Positions 20,914 through 52,800 of a stretch of 64,000 nt of DNA are shown piece by piece. The notes beneath the pieces were generated by a model that was not told the DNA's origin, did not search any database, and saw only the letters and a program-made list of their open reading frames with translations. Source of the stretch: an uncultured Gammaproteobacteria bacterium (GTDB lineage: Bacteria; Patescibacteriota; Microgenomatia; UBA8517); contig CAZRGC010000002.1 in assembly GCA_964599625.1 (NCBI GenBank), positions 71,883 to 135,882 of the forward strand. The letters are read 5' to 3'. The position numbers were made by a program, and so were the translations under genes. The first letter of the stretch is position 1. Each line of letters opens with the position of its first letter.

Positions 20914-23900
20914 CTATTCTGTTTGAACTATCCACCAGTTGAAGTTGGTGTCTTCGGGAATTGGTGAGGTGAAACCGACCTTGAAATATCCGTTGCCTTT
21001 CTCTTTTATATAAAGCACGTTGTTTTGGGTATTGGATGTTGGCGTTATATAAACGAATGTGTAGTCGTTGACCTTGGGATTTCTTATTGTGATATCTGCC
21101 GAATTTGCCGGAAGCACACCTTTTCCAACAGTGGAGTTTGTGTGTATCTCGCCGTTTACAACTGCTGAATTTGTTGCATCTTGTGCACCTGCAACTATTA
21201 TTTGGGAAACATTCACGCTTGCGAAAGTTGCGCTTCCCGAAGCGTCAATTGAGGATACTTGATTACCCGATATGTCTTTGACGGCCAAAGTTGAAGTGGA
21301 AACTGTTCCGGCTACATCCAAGTTTCCTGCTATGGCAACGTTGCCGCTGGTATCTATTGTTACCAACCCTGCCATTATTTCAACGGGGGCGAGCGCCAGG
21401 TCCTGAATCTTCAAAGGCTCTGAAAGTGTGTTAATTCCGGTGGACGCAATTACCAAATCGTTACCGATTGTTGCCGTTTGTGTGACGGATAGTGAATTGA
21501 GAGCTGCCTGATTTGTGACATACAGGTCTGCTGTTGCCAATTGTCCAAAAGAGCCGGAGGCTGTGGATGTTGATGTGTTCCAGTTTTGAGATTCTGACAA
21601 CAAAGCCTGGTCTTCTTGTACTTGAGTAAGTATATCTCGGATTTGATCGAGGTTTTCTGAATGGATGTTTCTGGCATATAGCTCTCCCGAGAAGGTGGCA
21701 TCGCCCGTGCTTGAAATTGAAGCAACCTCTTCGTTTTGGGCATTTGTTATTGCCAGCCTACCGCTTTCTGTGGCTGATCCTATTTGGACTGTTATGTCTG
21801 TTTCTTCAGCAAGAGGGGCTATAAGTTTTGTTTTAAAGTCGGGTGCGATAAGACCCATCGAGATCAACATGTCTTGGGCTGAAATCTGTGTTGCGTTTAT
21901 TGTTTGTGTTGCTATTTCCTCTGCTTGAAGTGCGCCGGTTTTAATATTCGCTGCGACAAAGTTGCCGATTGACTCAATTCCGTCGATTACCTGTCCGGAT
22001 GCGTTTTTGAGTGAGTATGTGGCAATGCCCATTCCGTCGGATACTTTTTCGATAACAAAGTCACCCAGACGGGCGGCTTGTATGTTTTCTGCAAAGTTTG
22101 TAACTATATCAGCATTATTTATGATGAATCCTGCCACACCCTCGGTTCTGGTATTGAGCCAATTTGCCGCATCAAATCTGGGACCTGTCAGTCTATAAGA
22201 GATTTGTGCAGGCATGGCTGAGTAAATGTTTACTCTTTTATTTGACTGGTCAACTTCATACCAAGTTTTGGTTGGGAAGTTGGGTGTTAAAAGTGCTGTC
22301 AGTTTTCCAATGTTTTCGTTCATATTGGTTGTCTTGCCGAAAAGCCACAAGTCGCTTCCTTCCGGTTGGGCATTGAAGTCAATTACTGTTCGATAGCCAA
22401 CACCTGGTAGATATTCCGTAGTCTGGGTTGAGCCCGATACTTCTTCTTTTACACCAATCATGCTCGCAAGATATGTTGCATATTTTTTACCATTAATTGT
22501 GTAAGGAGGGTCGACGGTTCCAACGTCAATTTTTCCTGTTCCGCCGCCGACTGTTAAGTCTGTTCCCGAATTGTCTCCCAAGAACACATCTCCATTGGTG
22601 GCTACTCTGAATCTTAGAACGCCACCAGCTGATGCAACTATCAGGTCTCCACCCTTGCCGTTATTGACCGCCAGTGCCGGCTCACCAACGTTTGATTGAT
22701 TGTCTATTACCCAACTTCCTGCAGATAGGGTGTTTTCCAAGGCTGAAGTTGTGGCACAGGCTGCTCCAGATTGACCGGTACAGAGAACTATTGTTGCTGT
22801 TCCGTTGGTGTTGTAGATATTTTTACCGTCAAGATAAAGACCTGTGTCAACTTCCAGGTTGCCGTTTATCAAAACATCACCGGCGGTGGATAAGGCATGG
22901 TCGCTTGTTGTATCCGCTGTTGAAAATCTTGAGAATGTTCTGGTTGTGAGGCCTGTGACTGTTCCCACCAAAAGGTTCTTGGAGACCCCCAAAACACCGG
23001 CTGTTCCTGCATCGTAAAGTTGTGCAAGAGTGTTTGTTCCGTCAGTGAGCGATAGTGTTCCACCGTCACCAATTGTAATTATTGGTGAAGTATCGACAAG
23101 TGCTATGTCGGTATCCCATCCTGATCCAATTGAGAGTGCTGTTTCTGTTCCCGCACCTGCTCCTGAAAGATTTGCAATGTTGATACCGTATTCAGTGATA
23201 CCAGACCCGGCCGAGGCAGGGCTAACTTTGAGTCCGGAGTATGCACAAGTGCCACCTGTACAACCTGTGAGAGTTGGCGCAGAAACGTTGAACATGTTAA
23301 ATTCTTTTGTGCCTGTCGCTCCTGTTGTATTCAAAGTACCTGTGATATTTAGGCCATTAACAATTGAGTTTCCGGATGTGTTTGAAGATGTGTTACTTAA
23401 TGCAAGATTTACCAAAGACCCAGTGTTAGCGGCTGTTTGTGTATAAACTGCAGAGTTAATATCTATGACGTTGCCTGTTGTTAGGGCATTGCTAGCAACT
23501 ATATTAAATAAGTCTCCGGTTGTGAGATTTGCAGAATCCGTATATGTCATAGCATTGGCTGATGTTGATGGTCCAAAGTAGTTGTAGGTAAAGTTGCCGT
23601 TTGAATCAACCGACATTGCCGGGGTTTGGATAACCTCGCCTGTTGTTGTATTGGTAATGTTGTTGTAGTTGTTGTAGACCTGGAAGACATTATTAACAGT
23701 CACAGCGTTTTTGGTTTGGTTGGGGCTTGTGAGAGTTGCCAAGGTTGAATAAAGCGAAGTATTGGTTGTTTCCATCCAGGCTTGGTTATTGCCACTGCCG
23801 TCGATTCCTGCAATAGAAAGCGTTGCCTTTGTGTCACAGGAAGATGATCCGGAGTTATAAGCGATGCAGGGGAATCCTGCTACTGACAGCGATATTACGT

Positions 23901-26900
23901 CATTAGCTGAGTATTGAGTGCTATTGTCGGAATCTTTGGTTGTATTGGCTGTATTGTCGTAAAGATCCACTGCTGAGTCGCTGTCAATTCCAACAACGGT
24001 GACGCCACCTGTGTTGCCGGAAGCATCATTTATACCTGCATAAATAAATTGGGAGCCGGAGTCAATGCCAACCGACATGACTCTATTGGAAGTTGAAGTT
24101 CCACCCGATGCGTTACCCATAAGTCTTTGGTAGTTGTCGGCCGTTACGTTTGCAATGGCAGAAGCATTGTGGCTGCTTAATGCTCTTTGGCCAACCTGGT
24201 ACATTTTCTTTATCTGTGAGACTGTCATAGCTTCAGCTGTTATGGTCAACTCATCCAAATCTCCGTTCCAGAAGTTAGCCCCTGTGGCACAAGCTGCACC
24301 CGTTGAACAATCTGCGCCAACCCCCAAAATAACTCCTGTTCCTGTGAGTGTTCCCGTTGCCGTTAGAGATACATCAGACGCTGCAAGTTCGCCGTCTATA
24401 TACAAGTAGATTGCATTTGTGGAATCTTTTACAGCAACCAGGTGGTGCCATGAATTATCCAGAAATGTTCGTGATGTTGTAGCTTGGTCGTCTGTTGGAT
24501 CGGCGTTGGTCCAGGTTGCATCGTCATCGATACCAAAGGTTATTGTGCCGGCAGAATTCATCCAGATCTTCCATCCCAAAACCGCAGCAGGGGTGGTGTT
24601 ATAAGTATGGTCAATTATCACGTCATCGTTGGGTGCTGCCGGGGGAGCAGACACCGAATGTTTGAACCAAGTTGAGACAGAGAACGAACCCGTGCCAAAG
24701 TCGTAGTCAGAATCTGTATCACAGGTGTTGTCGTTGTTGGCATCAGAACAGAAGAAGTCATCTGTGTTGTCGAGTGTTACTCCGGTTCCACGGACGCCGC
24801 TTGCGTATGTAAAACCTGTTCCGTTAGCGTTGTCAGCATCAAGCACATTGCCTTTTACCGAAACATCGGTTGCGTTTGCGTTGTCAGCTATTGTTCCACT
24901 TCCGTTGAATGTCCATGAGCCTCTGATGTCTCCAATCATTTGCTCGGAAATGTAACTGCTATTGTAATACTTTGCACTTCCGTTACTTTCATCACCCTTT
25001 TTGTCATCAATAACTGTAAGTCCTCCATTGTGGCCAACGAAGATGGTGTCACTTTTTCCGTCTATCTTTGAAGTTCCTGTGGTTACCGCAAGATCTGATG
25101 GCGATACATTTATTGTTTGTGCGGAGGCAAAAAGATATGGCCCTGCAACAGCACCTGCGCCTGCAATCTTCACACCCGTTTCATCCCAAACATTGTCAGG
25201 GGTTCCATTCAATTCGCTTGCTGAGTCTGTTACAACACTGTTCCATCTTTCCAATTGTTGTGAGGTTTCGTTGAGGGCATACATATCACCTGTTTGTGAA
25301 ATTAAGGCAGTGTTGTAATCATCATTTGTGGCGTCTGAATAGCTGTACACAACATTGTCGGTTTCGTTAATGACTGATACTCCTGTGTCAGTTGCAACAG
25401 CAACATAAGTTTTACCTCGATATGTTCTAGCGTGAACATCATTAGCTGCAGAGTCTGCAATCGGGGATGAAGGACCAGATGTCCAGGTCACAGTCGTGTT
25501 TCTGTTCGCAATGTTCTTGTCGCTGTAGAAGTCGTTGGTTGAGTTGAACTTTTGTGCTCGATCTACTTTGAAGTCAATTACAAACAGTGCACCCGATGAA
25601 CTGTTGGCTGTGTAATAAATTTTTCCGTTCAAACCAAAGGTGGATGATCCAGTTGACGATGTCGTTGCGCCAATCATTTGCTCGGTTACACCGCTACCTT
25701 TATCAAACTCCATCCATAAACTGTTATCTTTTGCATCATAAATATATAGTGCGGTAGTAGTAGATACCAATATAGCCTTTTCCGGGAATTCGCGCCTGGA
25801 GCCTCTCGTTGCACCAGATGCTTCGTTGTACCAAGAACTTCCCTTGGCGCGCTCATCGTTTCTCCATAGACCTCCATCCGGGTCTTGGGTTGTGTCGTAT
25901 ACGAAAGTATCAGTAAGGTTTGCTATTTGTGTCTGATCTTTTTGACCGGCAATGTTTGTATCTTGGTCGTTCCATGCAAATGCTGTTCTATTGTCATCTG
26001 ATCTCATTGCCAAGAAGTTTCCGCTGGTAAGCCCAAGTCCATATATCGTTGTAATATCACTTGTGTCACTACCGCTTGTGACTATTAAATTTGTTGTTCC
26101 AGTTTCACCACCAATAGCAACATTGTTTGTGCCAGTACCACCTGTTGATATGTTTACCGAATTGTTTCCTGTTCCAGTTGCTACGTTGACAGTGTTGTCC
26201 CCGTTTCCTGAACCTATGTTGATTGCGGAGTAGTTTCCTGATCCGTTTCCGATATTTAGTGCTGTTGTGGCTGCGCCTCCAAGTGATAGGGAAGTTGCAT
26301 TTGTGTTGAATATGGTTGCAGGACCTGATCCTGTGGTTGTAATGTCACTTCCGTTAACAGCCAAGTCTCCATTAGCGGTAACATTTCCGGATGCGTCAAC
26401 AATAAACATTGTTGCCAAAGAATTTGTGGCGTATATAAAGTTGCCTGTGAACGAACCACCGCCTGTGTTATCGAAATCAAATGATAGTCCGTTGCCAGTA
26501 AAGTTTGCAGGGCCGGCCTGTCCAAGTTTGATGATATTTCCGGAGGTTATTGCCGAAGCTGTTGCTTCAAAAATATTTCCTGTTGTAACAACTGTTGAGT
26601 TGATCTTGGCAATGTCCCCAATTGCGTTTTCGATTCCAAACACTTGGAAAGCAGATCCTGTTGCGTTTCCACCAACCGTCAAATCATAGGTGGAATTGGC
26701 AGGGGAGAGAACTTTGTTTGCAAGCTGCCACCAACCTTGTGTTCCGGATGTTGCAGTTGTGGTAATTGCCCCAGAACACGTGAGGTTTCCGTTTGCGCCG
26801 TCCATTGTACAACCCGTATCGCCACTGCCACCTTCAAACACTATAGAAGCCGTTCCGCTTCCTGTTGGGCCTATATTTAGTGTTGTTGCGGCTCCAGCAA

Positions 26901-29900
26901 AGTTAAGTGTTGTGGTTGTTGCGTTAAGCAGAGAGAAGCTGGTCTCGTCTGTGGTTATGGAGGCACCATTCACAGCTAAGGCATTGTTTACAGTTGTTGT
27001 TCCGCTACCCGCACCAATTCCTAAAGTTGATGCATTAGTGAATAGGTTTGCAGTAGTTTGAGTTGTTGTCAGATCACCCCCGTTGACTGCAACATCACCT
27101 GTACAAGTTAAGTTTCCAGTGGAGTTGGCAATTGTACAGCCAGTGGAAGCGCTTCCGCCTGCAATTTCCACATCTCCTGCAGAAATATTGTTCAATTGAA
27201 GTGCTGAAGAGTTACCTGAATCAAGTCTTAAGATGCTGCCTGATTGGCTATTGGATATTGAATGAATACCTGTTCCTGTAAAAGAAATTCCCGCTGCGGC
27301 TCCGGTGAATGTTTGTCCTGTTGTGCCCGCCAAAGAAACGTTACCCGTGGAATCAACTGTGTAGTAGGTTGTGCCAGAGTTATCAAATCTAAGGAAGTTG
27401 CCGGAGAAGTTCCCGCCTCCAGCATTATCAAGATCTGCAAAGATTGCATTTCCCGAGAAAGCGTGTCCGTCACCACCACTACCGAGTTTGACAAGGTTAC
27501 CTGTTGTTATAGCAGAGGCTGTGGCCTCGAAAACGTTTCCAGTTGTAATGACTGATGAGTTAAGCTTTGCAATTCCACCGTTTGTGTTTTCGATGCCGTA
27601 TGCCAAGAACTTTGCAGACGAGGTTGAGTTACCACCCACAACAACATCGTATGTTTGATTGGATGGGTAAAGTGTCTGATTTAAAAGTGCCCAGTGGCTT
27701 GCACCCGCAGGACAGTTGGCACCACTACTGTCACAGACTGCAAATCCGTTTTGTGTGAAGGCGTTGGCATACACATTATCCCAAGGAAGAGACCCACTTC
27801 CCAAATCATTTGTTCCTGTTGTTGTTATCGGAATCAAGTCGACATCCTGTGCCACTCGGCCTGTGAATGTGATTGTGTCTGTAATTGCATCACCAAGTGT
27901 AGTGTTTCCGTTAACTGACAAGTCTCCTAAATCTGTAACGTTTTGGTTGTTGCCTGTGATGGCACCTGTTAATGTAAGCGCTCCCAATCTAAGTGTTCCG
28001 GAAGATGCCGTAATGTCGTGATTGCCGGCACCAGTAGCAAAAGTAAAATCAGAGTCTGCACCTGTTAGTGTAATTCCTGTCGTGCCTGTTGAAGATATGT
28101 TGCCATTAGCATCAATCTGGAAAGCGTCACCTGTTCCACTTGTTAAAGTTCCTGATATATCCAAATTTCCTGTAACGTTTGTGTTGTCTTGAAGTTCGAT
28201 AGTTGAACCTGAAACCAATATAACTTGATCAGAAGATGTCAATGTTAAGTCATTTCCTGCTCCGTTTGCCGTAACGTTAACAACCGATCCCTGCAGGGTT
28301 GTTGTTTGTCCTGTTGCGCCAATCACCAAAGCTCCGCCTGGTGTAATATTGAGTGCCCCGGATGATGTTATATCACCGCCGTTTATTGCTGCATCTCCTA
28401 ATGTAGAAATGTTACCTGCCGAATTAACAGTAAACTGTGTTGCGCCTGCATTATCAAATCTCAAGAAGTTTCCTGTAAAGGAACTTCCACCTGTGTTGTC
28501 AAAGTCCATAAATATTCCGTTACCTGTGAAATTTCCATTGTCACCACCTGTGCCAAGCTTTACCAAATTTCCTGTTGTTATTGCACTGGCTGTTGCTTCA
28601 AACACGTTTCCACTTGTGATTACTGTTGAATTGAGTTTGGCAATATCTCCTGAAGCTGTCTCTACACCAAACACCTGGAAAGCAGAACCGGTTGCAGTTC
28701 CTCCGATTGTTAAGTCGTAGGTTGAGTTGGCGGGGGAGATTATTTTGTTATTGAGCTGCCAATAAAGGCTTCCTGCTGGACAGTTGTTGCCGCTTGCGTC
28801 ACAGACCCCAAAACCGTTTTGGGTGAATGCTACTCCGTAAACGTTGTCCCATGGAAGTGACGCGCTTCCCAAATCATTTGTTCCTGTTGTTGTTATCGGA
28901 ATCAAGTCGACATCCTGTGCCACTCGGCCTGTGAATGTGATTGTGTCTGTAATTGCATCACCAAGTGTAGTGTTTCCGTTAACTGACAAGTCTCCTAAAC
29001 CTGTAACGTTTTGGTTGTTGCCTGTGATGGCACCTAAAAGAGTAAATGCTCCAAGTCTGAGTGTCCCAGCTGTTGCTGTTATATCGTGATTGCTTGCGCC
29101 GGTTGCAAAAGTTATATCAGAATCTGCTCCTGTAAGGGTGAGCCCTGTTGTGCCTGTTGAACTCAAATTCCCATTTGCGTCAACTTGGAATGCGTTACCA
29201 GTCCCGCTTGTTAAAGTTCCTGATACATCCAAATCTCCTGTTATGTTTGTGTTGTCGACTATTTCTACACTTGTTCCCGCGTTAAGGATTATTTGATCTG
29301 CTGACGTTAAAGAAATGTCATTTCCGGCGCCATTTGATGTAAGGCTTGCGGTTGACCCTTGCAGTGTAATTGGTTGGGTGGTTACTCCGGCAACCAGTGC
29401 TCCTGTGGGAGTGATATTCAAAGCACCCGATGATGTTATATCACCGCCGTTTACTGCAACATCACTTGCCACAATGTTTCCGCTTGAATCAAAGTGGAAT
29501 GTTGTTCCTCCGCCAACGGAATAACCTGCAGAATTCTGCAAATACCCCGACACCCCAGTTAATGAATTTGAATTGGGGAGTGTGAATGTTCCTGTTGCTG
29601 TTAAGTTGGCTCCATTTGCAGTGAGTGCTACACTTCCTCTTGAGTTAATTACAACATTTCCTGTTTCTGATCCGCCAAGTGTCAGGTCCGACATGTTTGT
29701 TGTTGCTAGATTGCCGTTGCCTGTCAGGTATGTTGCAACGTCCGCAACTGAACCAGAAACAGAAGCTGTTGGAACTCCTGAGGCCACATTTATAAATGCG
29801 AATTTAGCGGATGAGGTTGCATTGGAACCAACCAAAAGATCGACGGTGTTATTTACATTGTAAAGCGCCCCTAGTGCCTGTGCCCAATATCCTGCACCTG

Positions 29901-32900
29901 CTGGACAGTTATTGCCGCTTGCGTCACAGACCGCGTTTCCGTTTTGGAACAGATTTACTCCATAGATGTTATCCCAAGGAAGTGAGCCAGACCCCAAATC
30001 ATTTGTTCCTGTTGTTGTTATCGGAATCAAGTCGACATCCTGTGCCACTCGGCCTGTGAATGTGATTGTGTCTGTAATTGCATTACCCAGAGTTGAATCT
30101 CCATTGAGAGTGGTGTTGCCGGTTACGGATAGTCCGTTATTAACCGTTGTTGTTCCGCTACCTGCACCAATACCAAGTGTTGATGCATTAGTAAATATGT
30201 TTGCAGTAGTTTGAGATGTTGTTAGGTCACCACCGTTAACGGCAACGTCGCCTGCTGCGGTAACATTCCCTGAAGAATCAACAGTAAACACGGTACTTCC
30301 TGAGTTATCAAACCTCAAAAAGTTACCTGTGAAGTTGCCACCACCCGCATTGTCAAAATCCATAAAGATTCCATTACCAGAAAATGCATGCCCATCTCCA
30401 CCAGTCCCAAGTTTAACCAAGTTGCCTGTTGTTATCGCACTTGCTGTTGCTTCAAACACATTTCCTGTTGTTATTGCACTTGAGTTTAGTTTTGCTATAT
30501 CTCCACCAGCATTCTCAATTCCAAACACCTGGAATGCAGCACCCGTGGCATTTGAACCAACCGTTAGGTCGTAAGTTGAATTAGCAGGGGAGAGAACTTT
30601 GTTTGCAAGCTGCCACCAGCCTTGGGTTCCACTTGTTGCAGTTGAGGTGATATTCCCCGAACAGGTAAAGTTGCCTGTTGTTCCGTCAAGCGTACAACCT
30701 GTATCTCCACTTCCACCGGAGATTGCTACTAATCCACTGGAACCTGTTGGCCCGATATTTAGTGTTGTTGCGGCTCCTGCAAAGTTGATTGTTGTTGCAT
30801 TGGTATTCAAAAGGTTGGCAGTTCCTGCTGTTGTTGTTATATTTCCACCGTTTGCAGCTATATCATTGGCAACTATATTACCGCTGCCGTCAAAACGGTA
30901 GGTCGTACCTCCGCCAACCGAATAACCTGCCGAATTCTGTATATATCCTGAAACACCTGTCAGAGTATTTGAATTGGGGAGTGTGAATGTTCCTGTTGCT
31001 GTTAAATTAGCTCCGTTTGCAGTGAGTGCCGCTGAACCTCTGGAATTTATAACGACATTGCCAGTTGTTGATCCACCCAAAGTCAGATCCGACATGTTTG
31101 TTGTTGCCAAGTTTCCGTTGCCCGTCAGATATGTGGCTACATTTGCCACTGAACCTGCGATTGTTGCAGTAGGAACTCCAGATGCAACATTTGTGAATGC
31201 AAACTTTGCGGATGTTGTTGCATTTCCCCCTATAAGAAGATCTGTCGAGTTGTTGGTTGGGAAGAGTGCTCCCAGGCTTTGATTCCAGTAACCGGCTCCT
31301 GCAGGACAGTTGGCGCCGCTTGCGTCACAGACCGCATTTCCGTTTTGTACAAAAGCATCGGCATACACGTTGTCCCAAGGAAGCGAACCGCTTCCCAAGT
31401 CATTTGTTCCTGTTGTTGTTATAGGGATTAAATCGCTGTCTTGTGCAACACGACCTGTGAATGTGATTGTGTCTGTGATTGCGTTGCCGAAGACTGAATC
31501 TCCGTTAAGGTTTGTGCTGCCTGTAACACTTAATGCGTTGTTAACTGTTGTTGTTCCGCTACCTGCACCCAAACCAAGTGTTGTTGCATTCAAAAATACG
31601 TTAGCTGTTGTTTGATTAGTTGTAAGGTCGCCCCCGTTTACAGCTACATCACCGGCCGATGTTAGATTGCCGTTTGAATCAACTGTAAACACAGTACTTC
31701 CTGAGTTATCAAATCTCAAAAAGTTACCTGTGAAGTTGCCTCCGCCTGCATTATCGAGGTCTGCAAAGATAGCGTTACCTGAAAAAGAGTGTCCGTCTCC
31801 GCCTGTACCAAGTTTAACTAAGTTACCGGTCGTAATGGCGGAAGCTGTTGCTTCAAATACGTTTCCTGTTGTTATTACTGTTGAGTTAAGTTTGGCAATA
31901 TCACCACCTGTATTCTCGATTCCAAATACTTGGAATGCTGAGCCGGTTGCACTTCCTCCGACTGTTAGGTCGTAAGTTGAGTTAGCAGGGGAGAGAACTT
32001 TGTTTGCAAGCTGCCACCAACCCTGTGTTCCGGATGTTGCAGTTGAGGTGATGTTGCCGGAACAGGTGAAATTTCCTGTTGTTCCGTCAAGCGTACAACC
32101 TGTATCTCCACTTCCACCGGAGATTACAACCGTTCCACTGGAACCTGTTGGCCCGATATTTAGCGTTGTTGCGGCTCCTGCAAAGTTGATTGTTGTTGCA
32201 GTTGAATTTACAAGGTTAAAAGATGTTTGGTTTGTGGTGAGGGTTCCTCCGTTTACCGAGAGCGTATTGTTAACCGTTGTTGTTCCGCTGCCTGCACCAA
32301 TTCCCAAAGTTGTAGCATTTGTGAATAGGTTTGCAGTAGTTTGAGTGGTTGTCAGATCACCACCATTAACTGCAACATCTCCTGAACAGGTTAGATTTCC
32401 TGTAGCGTTTGCAATTGTACAACCTGTTGTGCCGCTTCCTCCCGCTATCTCAACATCTCCGGTTGATGAGTTGTTTAACTGTAAGTTGGCGGCGTTTCCG
32501 GAGTCGATTGTGAATACGCTCGCAGAGTTTGAATTTGTTATGGAATGAGTTCCAGATCCACTGAATGTTATGTCTGCACCTGTTCCGCTTTCTGTTATAC
32601 CTGTTGTTCCTTGAACGGTAAGATTTCCGGCAACAACAGTGGAAGCGTTATTGATTGTTGTTGTTCCGCTTGTGTTTCCGATTGATATTGTTGTTGCTGC
32701 AGCCCCAATATTCAAAGCTGTTGCGTTTGTGTTGAAAACGTTTGCGGTTGATGATGTTGTTGTCAAATTTCCGCTATTGGCCGCCACATCTCCTGCCGCC
32801 GTCATGTTACCGGAGGCATCAACTGTAAATCTTGTGCTTCCTGCGTTATCAAATCTTAAAAAGTTACCGGTAAACGAACTGCCTCCTGCGTTGTCAAAAT

Positions 32901-35900
32901 CCAAAAATATTCCGTTTCCTGTGAAATTGCCGCTATCTCCACCTGTCCCAAGTTTGATTATATTTCCGGATGTTATGGCACTGGCTGTGGCCTCAAATAC
33001 GTTTCCTGTTGTTATTACTGTTGAGTTAAGTTTGGCAATGTCACCATCTGTGTTTTCGATTCCAAACACTTGGAAAGCCGACCCTGTTGCTGTTCCACCA
33101 ATTGCCAAGTCATAAGAGGAGATAGAAGGCGAGATTATCTTGTTGTTTAGCTGCCAATAAGTTGCGTTTACAGGACAGTTGGCACCACTGCTATCACAGA
33201 CATTAAAACCATTTTGTACAAAAGCGTCTGCGTACACATTGTCCCAGGGCAAGGAAGAACTGCCCAAATCATTAGTTCCTGTTGTAGTTATCGGAATTAA
33301 GTCGTTGTCTTGTGCCACTCGTCCCGTGAATGTAATTGTGTCTGTGATTGCGTTTCCAAGAGTTGTATCGCCATTTACAACCAATGCATTATTAACTGTT
33401 GTTGTTCCTGATGCCGCACCCAAGTTAACTACTGTTGCAGCACCTCCAACGTTCAAAGTTGTTGCATTTGAGTTAAAAAGTGTTGCAGTTCCTGTCGAGC
33501 TTGTTGTTAAGTCGGCACCGTTTACCGCTACATCACCTGCAAAAGTTCCTGCATTGGCATTGATGTTTCCGCTTCCGTCGAAATAATAAGTTGTTGCCCC
33601 GCCTACAGAGAAGCCTGCCGACGACTGCAGATAGTTTGCAACACCTGTGAGTGTTATTGAGTTGGGGAGGTTAACGACACCTGTTGTTGTTATGTCACCA
33701 TTTGCTCCAACTGTAAATCTTGTGTTTCCTGCGTTGTCAAATTTAACAAAGTTTCCTGTAAAACTTCCTCCGCCTGTGTTGTCGAAATCTGCGTATATTC
33801 CGTTACCAGTAAAATTCTGATCTCCGCCTTCACCAAGTTTGACCAAGTTCCCCGAAGTTATTGCGGAAGATGTCGCACTCAACACGTTGCCTGTTGTGAT
33901 ACCTGTTGAATTAAGCGTTGCCAAATTGCCGCCAGAAGTTTCCAAAGCGTAGGCTTGGAATTTGGCTGAAGTTGTTGCGGTTCCACCGACTGCCAAATCA
34001 TGTGTAATATTGGCAGGGGAGAGAACTTTGTTGTTAAGTTGCCAATAATTCACGGATGAACTTGCCGGACAGCCCGATCCAGTTATGTCACAGACTGCGT
34101 TACCGTTTTGATACAGGTTTGTTCCGTATATATTTGCCCATTGAAGAGCGCCACTTCCCAAATCATAAGTGTTGTTGGTTATGGGTAAGACGTTTGTGTT
34201 TACTCTTCCCACAAAAGAAATTCCGTCTGTAATGGCATCGCCCAAAGTTGTGTCACCTTTGACCAAGAGAGAATTGTTGAGGGTTGTCGTTCCGGAAATT
34301 GCCCCGATGTTGATTGCAGTTGCAGCACCTGCAAAGTTAACAGTTGTTGAGTTGGTGTTTATTAACGAAAAACTTGTTTCGTCTGTAGTTATCGACGAGC
34401 CATTTACTGCCAATGCATTATTAACTGTTGTTGTTCCGCTGCCTGCACCAATTCCCAAAGTTGATGCATTTGTGAATAAGTTTCCCGTAGTTTGAGTTGT
34501 TGTCAGGTCACCGCCGTTGACCGCAACATCTCCCGCTGCGGTAACATTCCCAGAAGCGTCAACTAAAAAGTTTGTTGCTCCTGCATTATCAAATCTCAAA
34601 AAGTTTCCTGTAAAACTTCCTCCGCCAGTATTGTCAAAATCTGCATAAATTCCATTTCCTGTAAAGTTTTGATTTCCACCCTCGCCGAGTTTGATTATAT
34701 TTCCTGATGTTATGGCACTGGCTGTTGCTTCAAAAACATTTCCTGATGTGATTACACCAGAAGTGATTTTAGCCAGGTTGCCTGTGGTCTTTTCTACTCC
34801 AAACACCTGGAAGGCCGAACCTGTTGCACTTCCTCCAACTGTCAAATCATAAGTGGAATTGGCAGGGGAGAGAACTTTGTTGTTAAGCTGCCACCATCCT
34901 TGAGTTCCGCTTGTAGCCAGTGAGGTGATGCTCCCGGAACAAGTGAAATTTCCGCTGGATCCGTCTAGCGTACAACCTGTGTCTCCGCTTCCACCCGAGA
35001 GTGTTATTACACCAGCGCCTCCGTTTGGACCAATGTTAAGTGTATTGGCAGCGCCTGCAAAATTAATCGTTGTTGCATTTGTGTTAAAAAGTGTGGCACT
35101 CGAAGCACTTGTTGTAAGGTCGCCTCCGTTAACTGCAACATCTCCGCCAAATGTTCCGGCGTTTGCGTTAAGATCTCCGCTTGCAGAAAAGTTGTATGTA
35201 TCACTTCCTCCAACAGATACACCCTGAGATAATCTTAGGAAGTTGCTAACGCCTGTGATTGTGTTTGTGTTGGGGAAGGTAAATGTCCCAACAGTTGTAA
35301 GGTTGGCTCCATTTGCTGTTAGGGCGGCCACACCCCTGGAATTTATGTTGATATTACCTGTTGTTGATCCACCCAAAGTCAGGTCCGACATGTTTGTTGT
35401 TGCAAGATTGCCATTGCCAGTCAGATATGTGGCAACATTAGCGACAGATCCAGCAATGCTTGCGGTGGGAGTTCCTCCGTTAACTCCTGTAAACGCAAAC
35501 TTTGCGGAGCTTGTGGCATTTGAACCTATGAGAACATCTACTGAATTATTTTTGGGGAAGAGGGCTCCGTTTGTTTGTGTCCAGAATATTGAAGCTGCAG
35601 CCGCTGCAGAAGGGTCAACCCAAGACAAAGCCCCGGCACCGTCAGTTTGCAAAATATAACCTGAACTTTGCGAACCAGGCCAGGTGTAGGGGATTCCGCC
35701 AAAAGTTGTAGTACCACTTACAACCAGATTGTTATTTATTGTTGTACTTCCGGTTCCAGCTCCAAGGCTTAGTGACGTTGCGCCACCGCCAATGTTTAAA
35801 GCTGTCACCCCTGAGTTCAGTAAGTTAAATGTTCCCGATGTTGAAGTTATGTCGCCGCCGTTTACCGCCAAATCGCCTGCTGTTGTTGTATTGCCGTTTG

Positions 35901-38097: not shown

Positions 38098-38103
38098 ATA
38101 TTT

Positions 38104-38628
38104 TTAGTTTCTGATTTCGAAATTTCCTTTGTTCTCATCCATCCAGGCAAGAAATTGTTTGACATCCGAAAGATAGTTTTTGAGTGTGCTTGAACTTACT
38201 TTTTCAGCCTCCAAAAAGGCTTTAAAATCATCAACTATATCAAAAGACATCTTTGGGCTTGGAGTTGATTTTTGTATGGGGGAAATATTTTCTACGCCTT
38301 GTGTAAAATCGTAGTTGGCAATTTGGGTGGCAACCATAAATCTAGCAAAATGACGAAGTGTTGAAAGTCTTCTATTGATTGATCCAACAGGCTGATTATT
38401 TTCTGACATGTAGCTTTTATATTCCTGGGCAATGTTTTGGTTAAGGAAGGGAACGGCTTCTGTTAGGGACTCAACATAAGATCCCAAAGACCTGATTTTA
38501 AGAATTAACCAGCCGGTGAAATGTGACAAATCGCTTCTGTAGTTTTTGTGAGATTTTGGAGAAACGCCCAAAGTGTCAAGGTATTTTGAAAACTCTTTTT
38601 TGACGATGTCGTTATCAAATTTGGGCAT
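38104..38628 (-). CDS. Small cytoplasmic protein built from tandem phage-integrase N-terminal SAM-like domains. No recombinase catalytic domain.
   Basis: SPKSHKNYRSDLSHFTGWL plus SINRRLSTLRHFARFMV form one full domain. SSSTLKNYLSDVKQFLAWM is the first half of a second. The stop TAA is followed after 6 nt, in the same frame, by the ATG of the giant ORF. Confidence 0.6.
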   Translation of the reverse strand: MPKFDNDIVKKEFSKYLDTLGVSPKSHKNYRSDLSHFTGWLILKIRSLGSYVESLTEAVPFLNQNIAQEYKSYMSENNQPVGSINRRLSTLRHFARFMVATQIANYDFTQGVENISPIQKSTPSPKMSFDIVDDFKAFLEAEKVSSSTLKNYLSDVKQFLAWMDENKGNFEIRN

Positions 38629-39022
38629 TTTGTAATTATGGCTAAATTAGACGAATTATACTGATTAGACTATTATTAAAAAGCTACGGGAGGCTGTCAA
38701 GAGGCTGTTTGCTATTCAAAAAAGCTATCACGTTACCTTTATTTTCACAGTGTATGTAGTATAATTACCGCATGGTTTTTACGCATAAATTTCGATACAT
38801 GATATATTTTGAAATACCCGTATAACATGCGAATAAGGCTATTTTTTTGATTTTTCGTAGGCACAAAGTCAATTTTGCGGAAAACCGCGGTTAATTTGAG
38901 AAAAGAAAAAAGTTTGCGGAAAAGGAGGCTGTTAACCTCCAAATCCGAAAGTTTTGTTGCCTTGCCACTATAAACACTACAGGTCGATGTTTTGTATTTG
39001 GTTACGCTTGATAAATAATGTA

Positions 39023-39051: not shown

Positions 39052-39140
39052 AAAAAATGATAGCAATTCGTTCCGAAAACTGGGGAATTATTTTAAAAAT
39101 GAAGCTGTTTTTTGTTAGGCTCAAAAAAAACTTTTAAATG

Positions 39141-46803: not shown

Positions 46804-49800
46804 ATGTCCAAGTTTATAAAACACTGCCCAATGAGATATCTAAAGATTGCCCAAGCTGCTCAAAGATTAGGAGTATCCACAAAAACCTTAAGAAGGTGGG
46901 AGAAAAGCGGAATACTCACACCCAGAAGGACTCCGGGAGGCCAAAGAGTTTATCTTGCAAGCTCTATAGAAACCTTTGTAAGGCCGGAGAAACAAACAGG
47001 AAAAACAAAAACAAGATTTGTAGCCAAAACATACGAAGTCAAAAATAGCTTCAATTATAAAAGTTTTGCTTACGGCGGAATTGCGTCGGCATTTGCAGTT
47101 CTTTTGTTCTTTAGTCTTTTTAAAGTTGATTTGAGTTTGAGGCTGCCCCAGGAAAGTTCATCTAACGTATTGGGTGCCAACACACAAAGAAACCCGGTTA
47201 TAGCTTTTGTAGACGATTTGGTGAAGCCTGTATTCGGATTTTTTGCCAATAGCGCCAAAAGGATTGAGCTGGCCCTATTCAGTTTCAATGTTAATCAGGA
47301 TATAAGCCAAGGTCAAACGATTATTCAAACAGCAAGCCAGGTGGGCGGAGGGTCGGAGATAGCAGACAGATCGGTTACTGGTGTAAAGATCGCAATTCAA
47401 ACAGTACTTAACGAAAATATTGCCAGAGGCCAAATCAGCGTGGACAGGTTAGTTTCAAACCTCGTCTTTCCGTCAACATATCTTTTAGATCTCTCAGAAA
47501 TAAAACATACAACAACATCAAATACTGGCTTAATACTTCCAAATACATCAAGTTCATCTCCATCCAAGCCTACAAGCGGTGAAGGATATCTGGCATATGA
47601 CACTTCGGGAAACCAGCTTATCCTTTATAACGGTTCCAACTGGCAGACTATTAGCGGAGGAGGGGGCGGAGGAAGCGGAGATATAACAACTGTCACTGCC
47701 GGGGACGGACTAACCGGCGGGGGTGGCTCAGGAGACCTTACCTTAAACATTGTCGGGGGAAGTGGTTTTTTGGTTTCTGGGGATCAAATTGATTTGGATG
47801 TAACAACTACGGGAACAACATCAACGACATCTTCAAATTCTGGTTTGGAGGTTACAACAGCGGGATTGTCTCTTATGAGAGGTTGTTCCAATACACAAAT
47901 ATTGAAATGGAATGCGAGTACACAGGTGTGGTACTGTGCAGCAGACAATAGCGGAAGTGGCGGATCTTTAGATATAGAAGAGGGTGGAAGCACAGTCGTG
48001 ACCAGCCCAACAGCGATTAACTTTACGGCATCTGAATTTTCTGTCACAGAATCACCAAGTGGAGTCGGTTTGATAGCTATTGATTACGTTAATTCAAAAA
48101 TTAGCAGGTATGATGCCACAGAAGTTCTTACCAACAAAACAATCTCTGCAGGAAGTAACACAATAACAGGTCTTACAAACTCCAACCTTTCCGGAAGTGC
48201 GGGAATAACAAACGCCAACCTCGCAAATTCATCAGTTACCATTAACTCTTCGGGAATCCTCACAGGTGGCGGATCTGTTTCTTTGGGAGGCAATATTACG
48301 CTTGCAGCGACAGAGGCTGACACACTGGCTGCAGTAGTTTCCAGAGGAGCCACCACCACAACTTTAGTTAATTTGAATGGTGGAATAATCTCTCAAGGTG
48401 CTGTTGCAGGAAAAGCGCTTGTGAGAATTGACGAAACTGGGGATCAGAATCTATTGGTTGCAAGCGCTTCAGGAGTTACAAAATTCACATTAGACAGATC
48501 GGGTAATGTTGCAGCCTCCGGAACTGTTACTGGTTCCAACCTCAGCGGCACCAATACAGGTGACCAAACAATCACTTTAACGGGAGATGTAACAGGAAGC
48601 GGAACAGGAAGCTTTGCAACTACGATTGCCACAAACTCAGTTGCACTTACAACAGACACCACAGGTAATTATGTTGCAACAGGAGCCTCGGGGAATGGAG
48701 TTTCTTTGACAGGTGGTGGTTCTGAGGGGGCAACTCTTACCGCTAATCTTGGTGCTTTGACAGGTGATTGGGATCAAACAGGTGCTTTTGATATTGCTCT
48801 CAACAATTCTTCGTCTGAACTCAAGATTTTAGAATCAGGATCAACACCAACCTTGTTCGGCATCTTTGATGTTGGAGATCTGAGCTCATCTGACTCTACA
48901 TTCACTTTCTCTGGGAGTTCTGGTACTGTTTTGACAAGTGCTAACGTTGCATCTGCCCTGTCAGGGTGGGACCAAAATTCCAGTGACGATTTAACAACAG
49001 GCAACTATGGTGCAACCCTCGACTCTGTTTATGTAAATGTTGCCGAGTCGCCAACCTCTGCAGATATTGCAGGAAGTTTTTCGGGAGGACTTACTCTAAA
49101 TTCAAACACAGTTGACGATTCGGAGCTTGTTGATGCACTCACATACACAGGGGCGTTTTCAGTTGGAAATCTTACAATTTCTGACACGAATGTACCTCTT
49201 ACGGGGGCCTCGTTAACTTTCGATTTTAATAATGCCAGCGATAGAACCCTTACAATTGCAAATGCAGGAGCAGGAACTGCAAATTTGTCAGTTGACGGTA
49301 CAATCGCCGCTTCAAACTTCTCAGGTTCATCAAGTGGCACCAATACAGGCGATCAGACTATTACATTAACGGGAGATGTAACAGGAAGTGGAACGGGAAG
49401 CTTTGCAACAACAATTGCAGCCAACTCTGTTGCATTAACAACAGATACGACAGGTAATTATGTTCAAAGCATAACAAACGGAACAGGAATCACAGGAGGC
49501 GATGGTGGCGCAGAAGGATCAACCCTAACATTAGCAGTTGATCAAGCTGCAAATTTTACGTTAACAGGAAATAACACATTTACACCTTCCTCAACAAACG
49601 ATTTAACAATAAATCTGGATGCAGACTCAACGCTTTCAGAAGTTTTCTCAAGTAGCACAAATTCAACAAGTGCAGTGACTCAATCTATAACAAACTCTGC
49701 ATCAAGTGGAACAATTACAGTTAACGGAAACGATATAACTTTGGTAGGAACTGACAATGCAGGCGGTGCTAACACCATTAATGCTTTCAAATTTGAAAAC

Positions 49801-52800
49801 GTTACCGCACACACAAATAACACCTTTAACGGACTAAACTTTGGAACGGGTTATACAAACTTTTTGACCTCGGGAACAATTGCAATCGTTGCCGATGGGA
49901 CAATAACAGGTGCAACAATCTCAGGCGGAAGCAACACATTGTCTAATATTGGTAACTCAAGCCTTACTAACTCATCTATTACTATTAATTCTTCGGGGAT
50001 TTTGACAGGCGGTGGATCGGTTTCCTTGGGTGGAAACATTACACTAACGGCAACCGAGGCTGATACTTTGGCAAGTGTGACTGGGCGCGGTGCTACAACA
50101 TCAACTGCCCTAACACTATCTAATGCATCAAACAGTATCACTGTAGGCACTTTAACAGCAACAGGTGGAACGATTAACGGAACTGTAATTGGTGGATCAA
50201 CACCTGCCGCGGGAACATTTACAACTCTAACCGCGAATGGAGATGTGACACTTGGGGATGCAATAACAGACAACATTACTTTTACAGGGCGTGTGGCACA
50301 GGATAGTGACTTGGTACCAATTGGCACAACCGGGACAAATGATCTGGGAAGTGGATCTCTTCCTTGGGATAACATTTACGCAAATGCAATAACTCAAAAC
50401 GGAAACCTGGTTTGTGACGCAAGCGGCGCCAACTGTCCCGCAGGGGCAGGCTACTGGGGTCAGACTCTTGGCGCGCTTTATGCAAACAACAATACCACAG
50501 ACCTTTTGATCGGTGGTAATGCTACAACTTCTGCCAAGTTTGCATTTACAAATGTATTAACAGGAACTCCAACTGCTTCTATCTCGGGAACTACTGCAAA
50601 TGTCGCGACTTATTTAACTGGTGAGGGGAATTTGGCAACAACAAATATGCAACCTTTGACAATTGGTGGTTCAACTACCGGTTCTGTTCAGCTAAACCCC
50701 AAAGGTTCAACGGGGCTCTTTGTAAGTGGTAGTGGAAATGTAGGAATTGGCACAACATCAAACACTGGCGGGTATGTTCTTGATGTTATCGGACATGCAA
50801 GATCCTCCGGATACTTTTTTGGAGACAATGGGTCGTTTGTATCTTTCACGGCAGGTGGGGCCTATCTTGGTGATTCAAGCTACGCAGCAGGTGGTGGAAT
50901 TGGGTATGGTTCTAGTAGAACGCAAATTTGGTCTGGAAGCGGATTTCCGCTCACGTTTGGAACAGCCGGAACTGAACATATGAGACTTAGTGCTGCAGGT
51001 GGTTTGTCGCTTGGCGCATCTTATTTAACAACTGATGCTGGTGCAGGCAACGCAATTATAACCGGCTCACTTGGTATAGGCACTTCTGGTCCTGATGCAA
51101 AACTCGATTCACTTTCTACTGCCGGTGAGCAGCTAAGGCTTACTTATGCTGACGGGTCGACTTATTCAAGTTTTACAACCAACTCCAGCGGTGATTTAAC
51201 CATTGCACCTTCAGGTGGCGATACGAACATAACAGGCAACTTATCGTCAACAGGGATAGTCACAGGATCTAATTTAAGTGGCACAAACACAGGTGATCAG
51301 ACAATTACCTTAACAGGTGATGTGACTGGAAGCGGAACAGGAAGCTTTGCAACAACAATCTCAGCCAACTCTGTTGAGCTTTCCACCGATACAACCGGCA
51401 ATTACGTGGCAACAGGAGCTTCTGGAAACGGAGTTGCCCTTACCGGTGGAGGCTCTGAAGGTGCAACATTGACTGCTAATCTTGGTGCTTTGACAGGTGA
51501 TTGGGATCAAACGGGGGCATTTGATATTGTTCTTAATAATTCATCATCTGAACTCAAAATCTTAGAATCAGGATCAACGCCAACCTTGTTCGGTATCTTT
51601 GATGTCGGAGATTTAAGTTCATCTGATTCCACATTTACTTTTTCTGGTTCATCCGGAACTGTTTTAACTTCAGCGAACTATGCAGGGACACTTGACTCTG
51701 TTTACGTTAATGTCGCTGAGTCACCTGCGGCTGGGGATGTTGCAGGTAGTTTCTCAGGAGGACTTACTCTAAATTCAAACACCGTCGATGATTCAGAACT
51801 TGTGGATGCTTTGACTTATACAGGTGCTTTTTCGGTGGGTAACCTTACAATTTCAGACACGAGCGTGCCTCTGACTGGGTCTTCTTTCACCTTCGACTTC
51901 AATAACGCCAGCGACAGAACTTTGACAATTGCAAACGCAGGGGCAGGTACTGCAAATTTGTCAGTTGACGGAACAATTTCTGCTTCCAACTTTTCAGGAT
52001 CGTCCAGTGGAACAAACACAGGCGACCAAACAATTACTCTAACAGGTGATGTAACCGGAACAGGAACGGGATCGTTTGCAACAACAATTGCAGCCAACTC
52101 TGTTGCATTAACAACAGATACGACAGGTAATTATGTCCAGTCTATTACGAACGGAACAGGAATAACTGGCGGTGACGGCGGCGGCGAAGGTTCTACTTTA
52201 ACACTTGCAGTTGACCAGGCAGCCAACTTTACCTTAACAGGTAATAATGCATTTACCCCATCATCTACAAATGATCTTACGATCAATTTAGATGCAGACT
52301 CAACTCTTGCTGAGGTGTTCACGAGTGGAACTAATTCAACAAGCGCAAATACAGTATCTTTAACAAATTCAGCATCAAGCGGAACAGTTGGTATCAAAGG
52401 CCTCGACTTTACATTTGTGGGAACCGACAACGCAGGTGGAGCAAACACAATTACAGGTATAAATTTTGGTGACGCAACAGCACACACCAACAACACTTAC
52501 AATGGAATTACATTTGGAACAGGGTATAACAACTTCCTGACCTCTGGAACTATAAACATTGCCGCGAATGGAACTATAACAGGCGCAACAATATCAGGTG
52601 GAAGCAACACCCTTTCCGATATCGACAACTCAAGCCTTACTAACTCATCTATTACTATTAATTCTTCTGGGATTTTGACAGGCGGCGGATCGGTTTCCTT
52701 GGGTGGAAACATCACACTCACCGCAACCGAAGCAGATACTTTGGCAGCAGTTGTGTCACGCGGCGCCGCAACCACAACTCTCGTAAACTTGAACGGCGGA

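What the first reader, a model, noticed from the sequence alone, without database searches (positions are those of the whole stretch)
26300..35700. Concerted evolution of kb-scale tandem repeats inside the giant gene (near-identical 90-nt DNA stretches)
Repeat copies spaced 1.1-1.3 kb apart share essentially identical DNA over about 90 nt (for example around 27.80, 28.87 and 29.99 kb), while flanking repeat sequence is more diverged. This is the signature of ongoing intragenic recombination or gene conversion. It is a mechanism for length and antigenic variation of the surface fibre, and it is also an assembly hazard.
Basis: seen in the sequence. Interest (0 to 1): 0.55.

Follow-up and report, generated by a model that had tools for sequence, protein, structure and literature searches.

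The report
Gene-conversion patches in giant surface gene
Three diverged repeat copies inside a 17-kb surface-protein gene of an uncultured Patescibacteria (CPR) bacterium share a stretch of exactly identical DNA, and comparison with a sister species shows it was pasted between copies by recent gene conversion, a well-known process seen here in a new lineage and repeat family.

Summary
Window 27797-27931 equals 28865-28999 exactly (135 nt; 171 nt with one mismatch). A 91-nt core recurs exactly at 29993-30083. Flanking repeat sequence is only 45-85% identical.

The tract encodes the most conserved peptide of the array (AITDTITFTGRVAQDVDLIPITTTGTNDLG). Three other copies encode almost the same peptide with about 45% different codons, so protein-level selection does not explain the identity.

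I recovered an orthologous gene from another MAG (P0039, 5657 aa, 82.7% aa identity, DNA in L036). There the three orthologous copies differ from each other at 18/91 nt and from ours at 19-21/91. Outside the tract, orthologues are closer than paralogues.

The orthologue carries its own exact tracts (98, 80 and 71 nt) at other repeat pairs. One 47-nt pair is identical within each genome but differs at 9/47 between genomes. Gene conversion is therefore recurrent and lineage-specific.

It is also patchy. The array as a whole is old, collinear between the two species and diverged (mean orthologue distance 0.227, mean best-paralogue distance 0.255). One 230-aa module block is replaced by a 143-aa module in the orthologue.

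Evidence for length variation is limited to that single difference. Nothing supports antigenic variation. The assembly hazard is real. This is a new member of a known kind, of moderate-to-low interest.

The parts
20914..38097 (-). Giant gene, 5727 aa. It has an N-terminal Phage_int_SAM-like segment (aa 5-66), a hydrophobic stretch near aa 80-100, the repeat array (aa 811-3926), a Laminin_G_3 domain (about aa 4457-4630) and a long C-terminal part.
   Evidence: ORF list; translation; Pfam and PHROG scans
26320..35667 (-). Repeat array of about 12 superunits of roughly 220 aa, each a D-F or E module followed by an ABC module, with H-module or linker insertions. DNA identity between units is 62-86%. 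No Pfam, NCBIfam, PHROG or PDB sequence match.
   Evidence: jackhmmer domain hits aa 811-3926
27797..27967 (-). Conversion tract, copy at aa 3405. 171 nt with one mismatch to the 28.87-kb copy; 27797-27931 is exact.
28865..29035 (-). Conversion tract, copy at aa 3049. Possible donor: the residue V in 'QDVD' is shared with its own orthologue, but DNA distances do not single out a donor.
29993..30083 (-). Conversion tract, copy at aa 2674. The 91-nt core is exact to both other copies. Flanking protein sequence is almost identical to the orthologue (one difference), and 3 of the 4 differences in the 81-aa window lie in the tract.
31291..31521 (-). Unconverted D-F copy (aa 2207). It encodes nearly the same peptide as the tract but differs at 14/91 nt. 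Serves as internal control.
33160..33390 (-). Unconverted D-F copy (aa 1584). Internal control.
34048..34275 (-). Most diverged D-F copy (aa 1289).
30133..30822 (-). E+ABC block (aa 2426-2655). The orthologue has an H module of about 143 aa in its place. The right breakpoint lies directly upstream of the converted D-F copy at aa 2674.
31853..31899 (-). 47-nt exact tract, partner of 32993-33039. The pair is identical in this genome and in the orthologue, but the two genomes differ at 9/47.
32993..33039 (-). 47-nt exact tract, partner of 31853-31899.
30674..30724 (-). 51-nt exact tract, partner of 32075-32125, inside the 1401-nt-offset unit pair. Marginal significance on its own.
32075..32125 (-). 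51-nt exact tract, partner of 30674-30724.
50236..50713 (+). Single copy of the D-F module with its flank in the second giant gene (46804-58254). It is 70-77% identical in DNA to the copies in the first gene and shares no long exact tract with them (longest shared exact match 26 nt).
49402..49463 (+). 62-nt exact tract in the second giant gene, partner at 52075-52136, within a 78.8%-identical repeat pair. Candidate conversion tract.

Best explanation
The identical stretches are short non-reciprocal recombination (gene-conversion) tracts between old, diverged, in-frame repeat units of a giant cell-surface protein gene of a Patescibacteria (CPR, probably Microgenomates-group) bacterium. The array predates the split from a sister species and mostly evolves divergently. 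Strong purifying selection on one small peptide module (ITDTITFTGRVAQD.DLIPITTTGTNDLGS.SLPWDN) keeps islands of DNA identity, with 23-nt exact matches even to unconverted copies. Inferred step: these islands let homologous recombination (presumably RecA-dependent, between misaligned repeats on one chromosome or on sister chromosomes) start there and copy 90-170 nt from one unit into others. In this lineage one event or two nested events homogenised the copies at aa 2674, 3049 and 3405 after the split. The sister lineage underwent independent events at other repeat pairs. Occasional longer events replace whole modules in frame, as with the E+ABC block versus the H module next to the aa 2674 copy, and these change protein length. 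Shown: the tracts, their statistical excess, identity at synonymous sites, their lineage specificity, the module replacement, and contig breakage at the repeats. Inferred: the enzymology, initiation at identity islands, and any adaptive value.
For: Exact 135-nt and 91-nt matches and the 171-nt tract with sharp edges. Codon-run permutation: 0 of 20000 shuffles reach the observed run, and control copies are not significant. Uniform-model P=1e-14 and 6.5e-11 for the two 91-nt runs, and below numerical precision for the 135-nt run. Copies at aa 1584, aa 2207 and in giant gene 2 encode almost the same peptide, yet only about 55% of their same-amino-acid codons are identical. Orthologue P0039 is 82.7% identical and collinear. 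Its three orthologous peptides are distinct where ours are identical, and residue differences concentrate in the tract. At DNA level paralogues differ at 0/91 here and 18/91 in the orthologue, with 19-21/91 between species. In the 3' flank the orthologue of the aa 2674 copy is closer (11/67) than its paralogues (23-25/67). In sliding windows the within-genome distance falls to 0.00-0.02 in the tract while between-species distances stay at 0.23-0.29. The orthologue's own pair falls to 0.05-0.10 in an overlapping stretch. The orthologue has private exact tracts of 98, 80 and 71 nt where our copies differ at 17/98, 11/80 and 15/71. The 47-nt pair is identical within both genomes but differs at 9/47 between them. 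Long unit alignments stay collinear across each tract, at offsets 1401 and 1068, so there is no chimeric join at the tracts. Two independent MAG assemblies give the same module order.
Against: Both genomes are metagenome assemblies and no reads were available. The order and number of the segments lying between identical tracts therefore cannot be verified. Orthologue DNA was retrievable only for gene nt 1-9994, so the third copy is covered for only 50 of 91 nt. Synonymous divergence between the two species is high (about 23% of all sites), so the donor copy and the polarity of the module swap are unresolved. The tract is closest in DNA to our own aa 2207 copy (14/91), not to any orthologue. 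A deliberately conservative array-wide test found no general excess of within-genome similarity (7 windows vs 12 of opposite sign), so conversion is confined to patches. No recombination gene or population-level variant was examined.
Confidence: 0.85

Rival explanations
1. Assembly or polishing artefact. The identical stretches were created or misplaced by the assembler, through repeat collapse, gap filling from a paralogous copy, or homogenisation by mis-mapped reads. On this view the real copies differ or occur in another order or number.
For: The source is a MAG contig of 225 kb. Short-read k=31 assemblies of the same species shatter at this array. A path error through a 91-135-nt identical stretch would stay in frame and be invisible in the sequence.
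Against: De Bruijn assembly does not invent identity, because each tract is joined to unique flanks on both sides. Unit-level collinearity with paralogous units is kept across every tract. An independent assembly of a sister species has the same module order and shows the same kind of tracts at other positions. The residue changes relative to the orthologue lie mostly inside the tract.
Confidence: 0.05
2. Nucleotide-level functional constraint. The 91-nt sequence is itself a functional DNA or RNA element, such as a structured RNA, a binding site or a programmed recombination site, kept identical by selection rather than by copying.
For: The 3' (coding-sense) end of the tract coincides within 3 nt in all three copies. 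The tract sits at the same H/D-F junction where the orthologue also has a near-identical stretch.
Against: The RNA fold is unremarkable (z=-1.0, 34 of 200 shuffles fold as well). Three other copies of the module lack the sequence. The orthologous copies differ at about 20% of the 91 positions. The orthologue's near-identical stretch only partly overlaps ours and has a different sequence.
Confidence: 0.03
3. Recent unit duplication followed by rapid diversifying selection on the flanks, leaving only the constrained core identical. No conversion is involved.
For: Surface-exposed repeats often evolve fast. The aa 3049 and aa 3405 units are each other's closest relatives.
Against: Flank divergence is just as high at synonymous sites, with an identical-codon fraction of about 0.56. 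All three units have one-to-one orthologues in the sister species, so the duplications predate the split while the identity postdates it. The aa 2674 copy belongs to a different unit type with a non-homologous upstream flank.
Confidence: 0.04
4. Diversity-generating retroelement or another cassette-type programmed variation system, with the identical stretches acting as template and variable repeats.
For: CPR bacteria are known to be rich in DGRs (my own background knowledge, not tested here). The gene encodes a surface protein.
Against: No reverse transcriptase or any other Pfam-recognisable retroelement gene among the ORFs of 150 aa or more scanned across the 64-kb window. The copies are exactly identical rather than differing at adenines. 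All copies are in frame inside one gene and lie in its most conserved, not its variable, segment.
Confidence: 0.01

Closest known systems
Intragenic recombination among direct DNA repeats of Helicobacter pylori cagY (PMC2194252)
   Same: A large surface-exposed protein gene holds many direct repeats. All repeat spacings are in frame, so recombination yields intact ORFs. Recombination between repeats changes module content.
   Different: For cagY, size variants were shown within hosts and linked to antibody evasion. Here only one between-species module replacement is seen, and no within-population variants could be examined. The repeats here are much longer (0.85-2 kb spacing) and far more diverged.
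Periscope proteins (SasG, Aap, Rib, Sgo_0707; PMC8201768)
   Same: A long repetitive stalk-like region sits in a surface protein. DNA identity between repeats is proposed to drive intragenic recombination and length change.
   Different: [quoted passage not shown] Here whole units are only 62-86% identical in DNA, identity is confined to patches of at most 171 nt, and unit number is conserved between two species.
Segmental gene conversion in Mycoplasma genitalium mgpB/mgpC with MgPar repeats (PMC2169797)
   Same: A small-genome bacterium uses homologous recombination between repeated sequences to alter a surface adhesin gene. The result is mosaic tracts.
   Different: MgPa variation draws on silent donor cassettes elsewhere in the genome and diversifies variable regions. 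Here donor and recipient are expressed repeats of one gene, and the main tract homogenises the most conserved segment.
Classical concerted evolution of paralogous repeats (paralogues identical within a genome, diverged between genomes)
   Same: This pattern is seen at the 47-nt pair and at the H/D-F junction. Paralogues differ at 0-5% within each genome but at 19-26% between genomes.
   Different: It affects only short patches, not the array. Most of each unit follows ordinary divergent evolution.

Membership tests
Gene-conversion tract between paralogous repeats | A run of identity significantly longer than the divergence of the flanks predicts | tested here: met
   135-nt and 91-nt exact runs against 68-75% flank identity. 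P=1e-14 and 6.5e-11 for the 91-nt runs, below numerical precision for the 135-nt run. 0 of 20000 codon shuffles reach the observed run.
Gene-conversion tract between paralogous repeats | Identity extends to synonymous sites, so it is not explained by protein conservation | tested here: met
   All 30-45 codons are identical in the tract. Copies with almost the same peptide elsewhere share only about 55% of codons.
Gene-conversion tract between paralogous repeats | Phylogenetic incongruence: paralogues cluster inside the tract, orthologues cluster outside it | tested here: met
   Inside the tract, paralogues differ at 0/91 and orthologues at 19-21/91. In the 3' flank the orthologue differs at 11/67 and paralogues at 23-25/67.
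Gene-conversion tract between paralogous repeats | Identified donor and recipient | tested here: inconclusive
   The residue V in 'QDVD' points to the aa 3049 copy as donor. DNA distances to the orthologues (19-21/91) do not discriminate.
Array-wide concerted evolution | Whole repeat units are more similar within a genome than to their orthologues | tested here: not met
   Mean orthologue distance is 0.227 against 0.255 for the best paralogue over 234 windows. Module order is collinear between species. A conservative test shows no excess.
Periscope protein | Tandem array of highly identical repeats along their whole length | tested here: not met
   Unit pairs are 62-86% identical in DNA.
Periscope protein | Repeat number varies between closely related strains | tested here: inconclusive
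   Strain contigs at 97-100% identity (Logan) all break at the array. Between species there is a single module replacement with a net change of 87 aa.
Periscope protein | Repeats form an elongated rod that projects a distal binding domain | not testable with these tools
   The AlphaFold2 monomer model of one unit had pLDDT 55 and pTM 0.25 and is unusable. A Laminin_G_3 domain lies C-terminal to the array.
Diversity-generating retroelement target | A nearby reverse transcriptase, and a template/variable repeat pair differing at adenines | tested here: not met
   No RT among the ORFs of 150 aa or more in the window. The repeats are exactly identical.
cagY-type in-frame repeat recombination | Recombination between any pair of repeats keeps the reading frame | tested here: met
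   Tract spacings of 1068, 1125 and 2193 nt and all family spacings (852-2031 nt) are multiples of 3.
cagY-type in-frame repeat recombination | Size variants coexist within populations | not testable with these tools
   No read-level data were available.

The most novel reading that the evidence does not exclude
The conserved D-F peptide module and the H/D-F junction might act as a built-in recombination hotspot. On this reading an episymbiotic CPR bacterium uses it to shuffle and resize modules of its giant surface fibre (E+ABC block versus H module), giving a cassette-like length and architecture variation system in a lineage where none has been described. The supporting hints are that both species carry private tracts and that the only structural difference between them abuts a converted copy.
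Probability: 0.15. Interest if true: 0.55.

Novelty: new member of a known kind. Interest (0 to 1): 0.33.

Why it matters
The finding shows that homologous-recombination-driven homogenisation and module replacement operate inside giant surface-protein genes of CPR bacteria. These organisms have tiny genomes, and their cell-surface proteins presumably mediate attachment to hosts. It gives a concrete two-genome example with dated, lineage-specific tracts. It also flags this gene as one whose copy order cannot be trusted from short reads. The repeat family itself is undescribed: it has no Pfam or NCBIfam match, yet 2691 cluster representatives match it at E<=0.001. The mechanism is textbook, so the result refines annotation and assembly practice rather than changing understanding.

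Tried and rejected
- TRF found no tandem array, because the units are too long, diverged and aperiodic.
- Pfam, NCBIfam, PHROGs and a PDB sequence search gave nothing for the repeat units.
- AlphaFold2 on one unit (aa 3030-3250, 17-sequence alignment) gave pLDDT 55, so I ran no fold search.
- Scans of genome contigs and metagenome contigs with the post-repeat domain returned only relatives at 47% identity or less, of no use for counting repeats. Some of those relatives do show their own exact tracts in unrelated modules.
- A word-index homologue search with the repeat region found no same-species fragments.
- Logan contigs of other strains (97-100% identity) all end at the array, so strain-level copy number could not be compared.
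- A search with the downstream 173-aa neighbour did not reach the orthologue genome. The upstream 174-aa neighbour did.
- The DGR idea was dropped: no RT in the window.
- The RNA-structure idea was dropped: z=-1.0.
- The array-wide test with the paralogue chosen by cross-species distance was uninformative for the tract, and it shows no general signal.
- The mapping of the 51-nt tract onto the orthologue falls in the swapped segment and was discarded.
Full report
**1. What is there**

The region lies inside one ORF on the minus strand, 20914-38097, encoding 5727 aa.
- The protein starts with a Phage_int_SAM-like segment (PHROG integrase match at aa 5-66).
- A hydrophobic stretch follows near aa 80-100, as read from the translation.
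- Next comes a long Gly/Thr/Asn/Ser-rich repetitive region.
- A Laminin_G_3 domain lies at about aa 4457-4630, followed by a long C-terminal part.

The neighbouring genes are LeuRS, ArgRS, ComEA, ComEC, a GT2 glycosyltransferase, a DegT aminotransferase and a methyltransferase. Homologues of the giant protein and of the upstream 174-aa gene carry names from Levybacteria, Gottesmanbacteria, Amesbacteria and the Microgenomates group. The organism is therefore a CPR/Patescibacteria bacterium, probably of the Microgenomates group; this is an inference from those names. The window comes from an NCBI contig of 225,083 bp.

**2. The repeats**

Self-BLAST gives 45 direct HSPs within 26.3-35.9 kb, at 67-90% identity; all but one 52-nt HSP are at most 86%. 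TRF finds nothing, because the array is not periodic.

Motif mapping and an iterated HMM search show about 12 superunits between aa 811 and 3926, which is window 26320-35667. Each superunit is built as follows:
- A small two-cysteine module comes first. It is either 'D-F' (ITDTITFTGRVAQD.DLIPITTTGTNDLGS.SLPWDNVY...VCD.SG.NCP) or 'E' (GGSGDTGCT...).
- An 'ABC' module of about 135 aa follows.
- Optional 'H' (LNITPGGALV..., about 155 aa) or linker insertions complete the unit.

None of this matches Pfam, NCBIfam, PHROGs or any PDB sequence. A profile of the unit nevertheless hits 2691 cluster representatives at E<=0.001, many of them proteins of 2000-7000 aa. A monomer AlphaFold2 model was of low confidence (pLDDT 55).

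**3.

The longest exact repeats in the gene are these:
- 27797-27931 equals 28865-28999, 135 nt.
- A 91-nt core is shared by three copies, starting at 27800, 28868 and 29993.

The next longest exact repeat anywhere in the gene is 51 nt. Between the first two copies the tract is really 171 nt with a single mismatch, and identity drops abruptly at its coding-sense 3' end. The spacings are 1068 and 1125 nt, both in frame.

The flanks are 45-85% identical. The upstream flank of the 29.99-kb copy is a different module type altogether.

**4. Not chance, and not protein-level selection**

Under a uniform model the two 91-nt runs give P=1e-14 and 6.5e-11, and the 135-nt run a probability below numerical precision.

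The tract encodes the most conserved peptide of the array, so I tested synonymous sites only. Among same-amino-acid degenerate codons, the pair of units at aa 3049 and aa 3405 has a run of 55 identical codons against a background identical-codon fraction of 0.56. None of 20000 shuffles reaches that run. The aa 2674 copy gives a run of 30 against each partner, reached in 5 and 3 of 20000 shuffles. Control comparisons with the aa 2207 and aa 1584 copies give runs of 4-8 and are not significant.

The aa 2207 copy, the aa 1584 copy and the single copy in the second giant gene (50236-50713) encode almost the same peptide. They differ from the tract at about 14/91 nt or more. The tract RNA has no unusual fold, z=-1.0. 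No reverse transcriptase is present in the window.

**5. Comparative test**

The exhaustive profile search returned P0039, a protein of 5657 aa from another NCBI contig of 145,915 bp. It is 82.7% identical to the giant protein and collinear with it end to end.

I reached its DNA through the orthologue of the upstream 174-aa gene, P0184. This gave locus L036, from GCA_964600575.1 contig CAZRJH010000004.1. Synteny there is conserved, and the locus holds gene nt 1-9994.

The results are as follows.

(a) The three D-F copies that are identical here are three different peptides there. The tract region reads ...DNITFTGRVAQDSDLLPITTTG...DSITFTGRVAQDVDLLPITTTG and ...DNITFTARVAQDSDLIPIGTTG. For the aa 2674 copy, 3 of the 4 residue differences between the species in the 81-aa window lie in the tract.

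(b) In DNA, the 91-nt core differs as follows.

| Comparison | Differences |
|---|---|
| Between our copies | 0/91 |
| Between the orthologous copies | 18/91 |
| Between species | 19-21/91 |
| 3' flank, aa 2674 copy to its orthologue | 11/67 |
| 3' flank, aa 2674 copy to its paralogues | 23-25/67 |

(c) In sliding windows across the H module and the D-F junction, the within-genome distance here falls to 0.00-0.02 in the tract. All between-species distances stay at 0.23-0.29. The orthologue's own pair of copies falls to 0.05-0.10 in a stretch that overlaps the 5' part of our tract, then rises again. The same junction has therefore been homogenised independently in both lineages.

(d) The orthologue has private exact tracts of 98, 80 and 71 nt at other repeat pairs. 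At those positions our copies differ at 17/98, 11/80 and 15/71.

(e) The 47-nt pair at 31853/32993 is identical within each genome but differs at 9/47 between genomes. This is the classical signature of concerted evolution.

**6. Scope**

Conversion is patchy.
- Over 234 sixty-nt windows, the mean distance to the orthologue is 0.227 and the mean distance to the best in-frame paralogue is 0.255. The paralogue is closer in 85 windows, many of them only marginally.
- A test deliberately biased against conversion shows no array-wide signal: 7 windows against 12 of opposite sign.
- Module order and number are the same in both species, with one exception.

The exception is our aa 2426-2655, an E+ABC block of 230 aa at window 30133-30822. 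In the orthologue it is replaced by an H module of about 143 aa, which is itself a mosaic of stretches 4-40% divergent from the next H module.

The polarity of this replacement is unresolved.
- Distances favour a duplication or homogenisation in our lineage. Our two E+ABC copies differ by 0.173, against 0.226 between orthologues.
- The junction in the orthologue favours a replacement there. It reads 'GDLSVDGNTTL|NGDSTIGNAITD' and retains the linker end typical of our arrangement.

Either way it is a lineage-specific, in-frame module replacement. Its right end abuts the converted D-F copy.

**7. Assembly issues**

Logan (k=31) contigs from independent runs carry this species at 97-100% identity, and all stop at the array.
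- L003 ends at window 35249 and L004 at 34853, beside a 30-nt exact repeat.
- L031 starts at window 26651, inside the last repeat unit and 48 nt from a 38-nt exact repeat (26699-26736). L032 and L034, from two other runs, have the same gene layout at their start.

The hazard is therefore real. Against an artefactual origin of the tracts:
- Each tract is embedded in unique flanks.
- Long unit alignments remain collinear across the tracts, at offsets 1401 and 1068.
- An independent assembly of the sister species has the same architecture.

What the sequence alone cannot exclude is a wrong order or number of the segments that lie between the identical tracts.

**8. Mechanism and comparison**

The best explanation is short-patch homologous recombination between misaligned in-frame repeats, seeded where purifying selection on the D-F peptide maintains islands of DNA identity. 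Even unconverted copies share 23-nt exact matches with the tract. Rare longer events swap modules.

This is the behaviour described for cagY (PMC2194252) and, in general terms, for repeat-bearing surface proteins such as Periscope proteins (PMC8201768) and MgPa (PMC2169797). The gene does not meet the Periscope criterion of highly identical repeats.

Nothing supports antigenic variation. The main tract homogenises the most conserved segment and changes only 2-4 residues per copy.

**9. Verdict**

The gene-conversion interpretation is supported and is now backed by orthologue data. Array-wide 'concerted evolution' and 'antigenic variation' are overstated. This is a known kind of process in a new lineage and an undescribed repeat family, and interest is moderate to low.

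Noticed in passing
window 37900-38085 (-), 46804-58254 (+), 38104-38628 (-): Both giant proteins begin with a cytoplasmic DNA-binding-type domain followed (for giant 1, as read in the translation) by a hydrophobic stretch and a huge presumably extracellular part. Giant 1 has a Phage_int_SAM-like segment at aa 5-66; giant 2 has a MerR/HTH domain at aa 12-60. A stand-alone 174-aa protein with two SAM-like domains sits directly upstream of giant 1. It has 339 homologues, many labelled XerD although they lack a catalytic domain. The arrangement is conserved in the orthologue genome.
   Followed up: partly
window 46804-58254 (+); L036 1-690: The second giant (MerR-type) gene encodes 3816 aa here, but the gene in the same syntenic position in the sister genome encodes 4411 aa. 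It has its own repeats at 48.5-52.7 kb, about 79-80% identical, with a 62-nt exact tract at 49402/52075 (P=3e-5).
   Followed up: partly
window 58196-63193 (+): A 1665-aa ORF with seven Laminin_G_3 domains plus Toxin_R_bind_N and Sialidase/Pentaxin-like matches. It starts at a TTG that overlaps the end of the second giant gene by 59 nt, so it may be a continuation or a partner of that gene.
   Followed up: no
window 1075-12946 (+): Ten consecutive ORFs of 326-502 aa have no Pfam match at all. Two of them are paralogous (2745-3604 vs 5467-6329, 66% DNA identity). A PMT_2-like glycosyltransferase follows at 14096-15670.
   Followed up: no
window 34853-42077 vs L004 (SRR29476910): A second strain (97.9% identity) differs in patches. 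There are 2-28 mismatches per 300 nt across LeuRS (38.7-41.7 kb) and in spots of the giant gene's 5' part. No differences occur over 35.1-36.6 kb, and codon differences in the giant gene are 30 synonymous to 2 non-synonymous. This suggests recombination between strains.
   Followed up: partly
L031, L032, L034 (Logan contigs of three runs) vs window 26651: L031 aligns to the window from 26651 in the last repeat unit, 48 nt from a 38-nt exact repeat (26699/31985). L032 and L034, from two other sequencing runs, have the identical gene layout at their start. This shows how reproducibly the array breaks k=31 assemblies.
   Followed up: yes
proteins P0019, P0023, P0025, P0027, P0029: In more distant homologues the ~58-aa D-F module ('...DLGSxxxxWxxxY') occurs as 3-4 head-to-tail copies rather than once per superunit. 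The module family is large (2691 representatives at E<=0.001) but is absent from Pfam and NCBIfam.
   Followed up: partly
L010 5141/6560 (69 nt), L017 5453/6689 (68 nt), L011 423/14398 (154 nt): Distant CPR relatives of the giant gene also carry exact tracts between otherwise 77-89% identical repeats, in unrelated modules. Patchy conversion may be common in these genes.
   Followed up: partly
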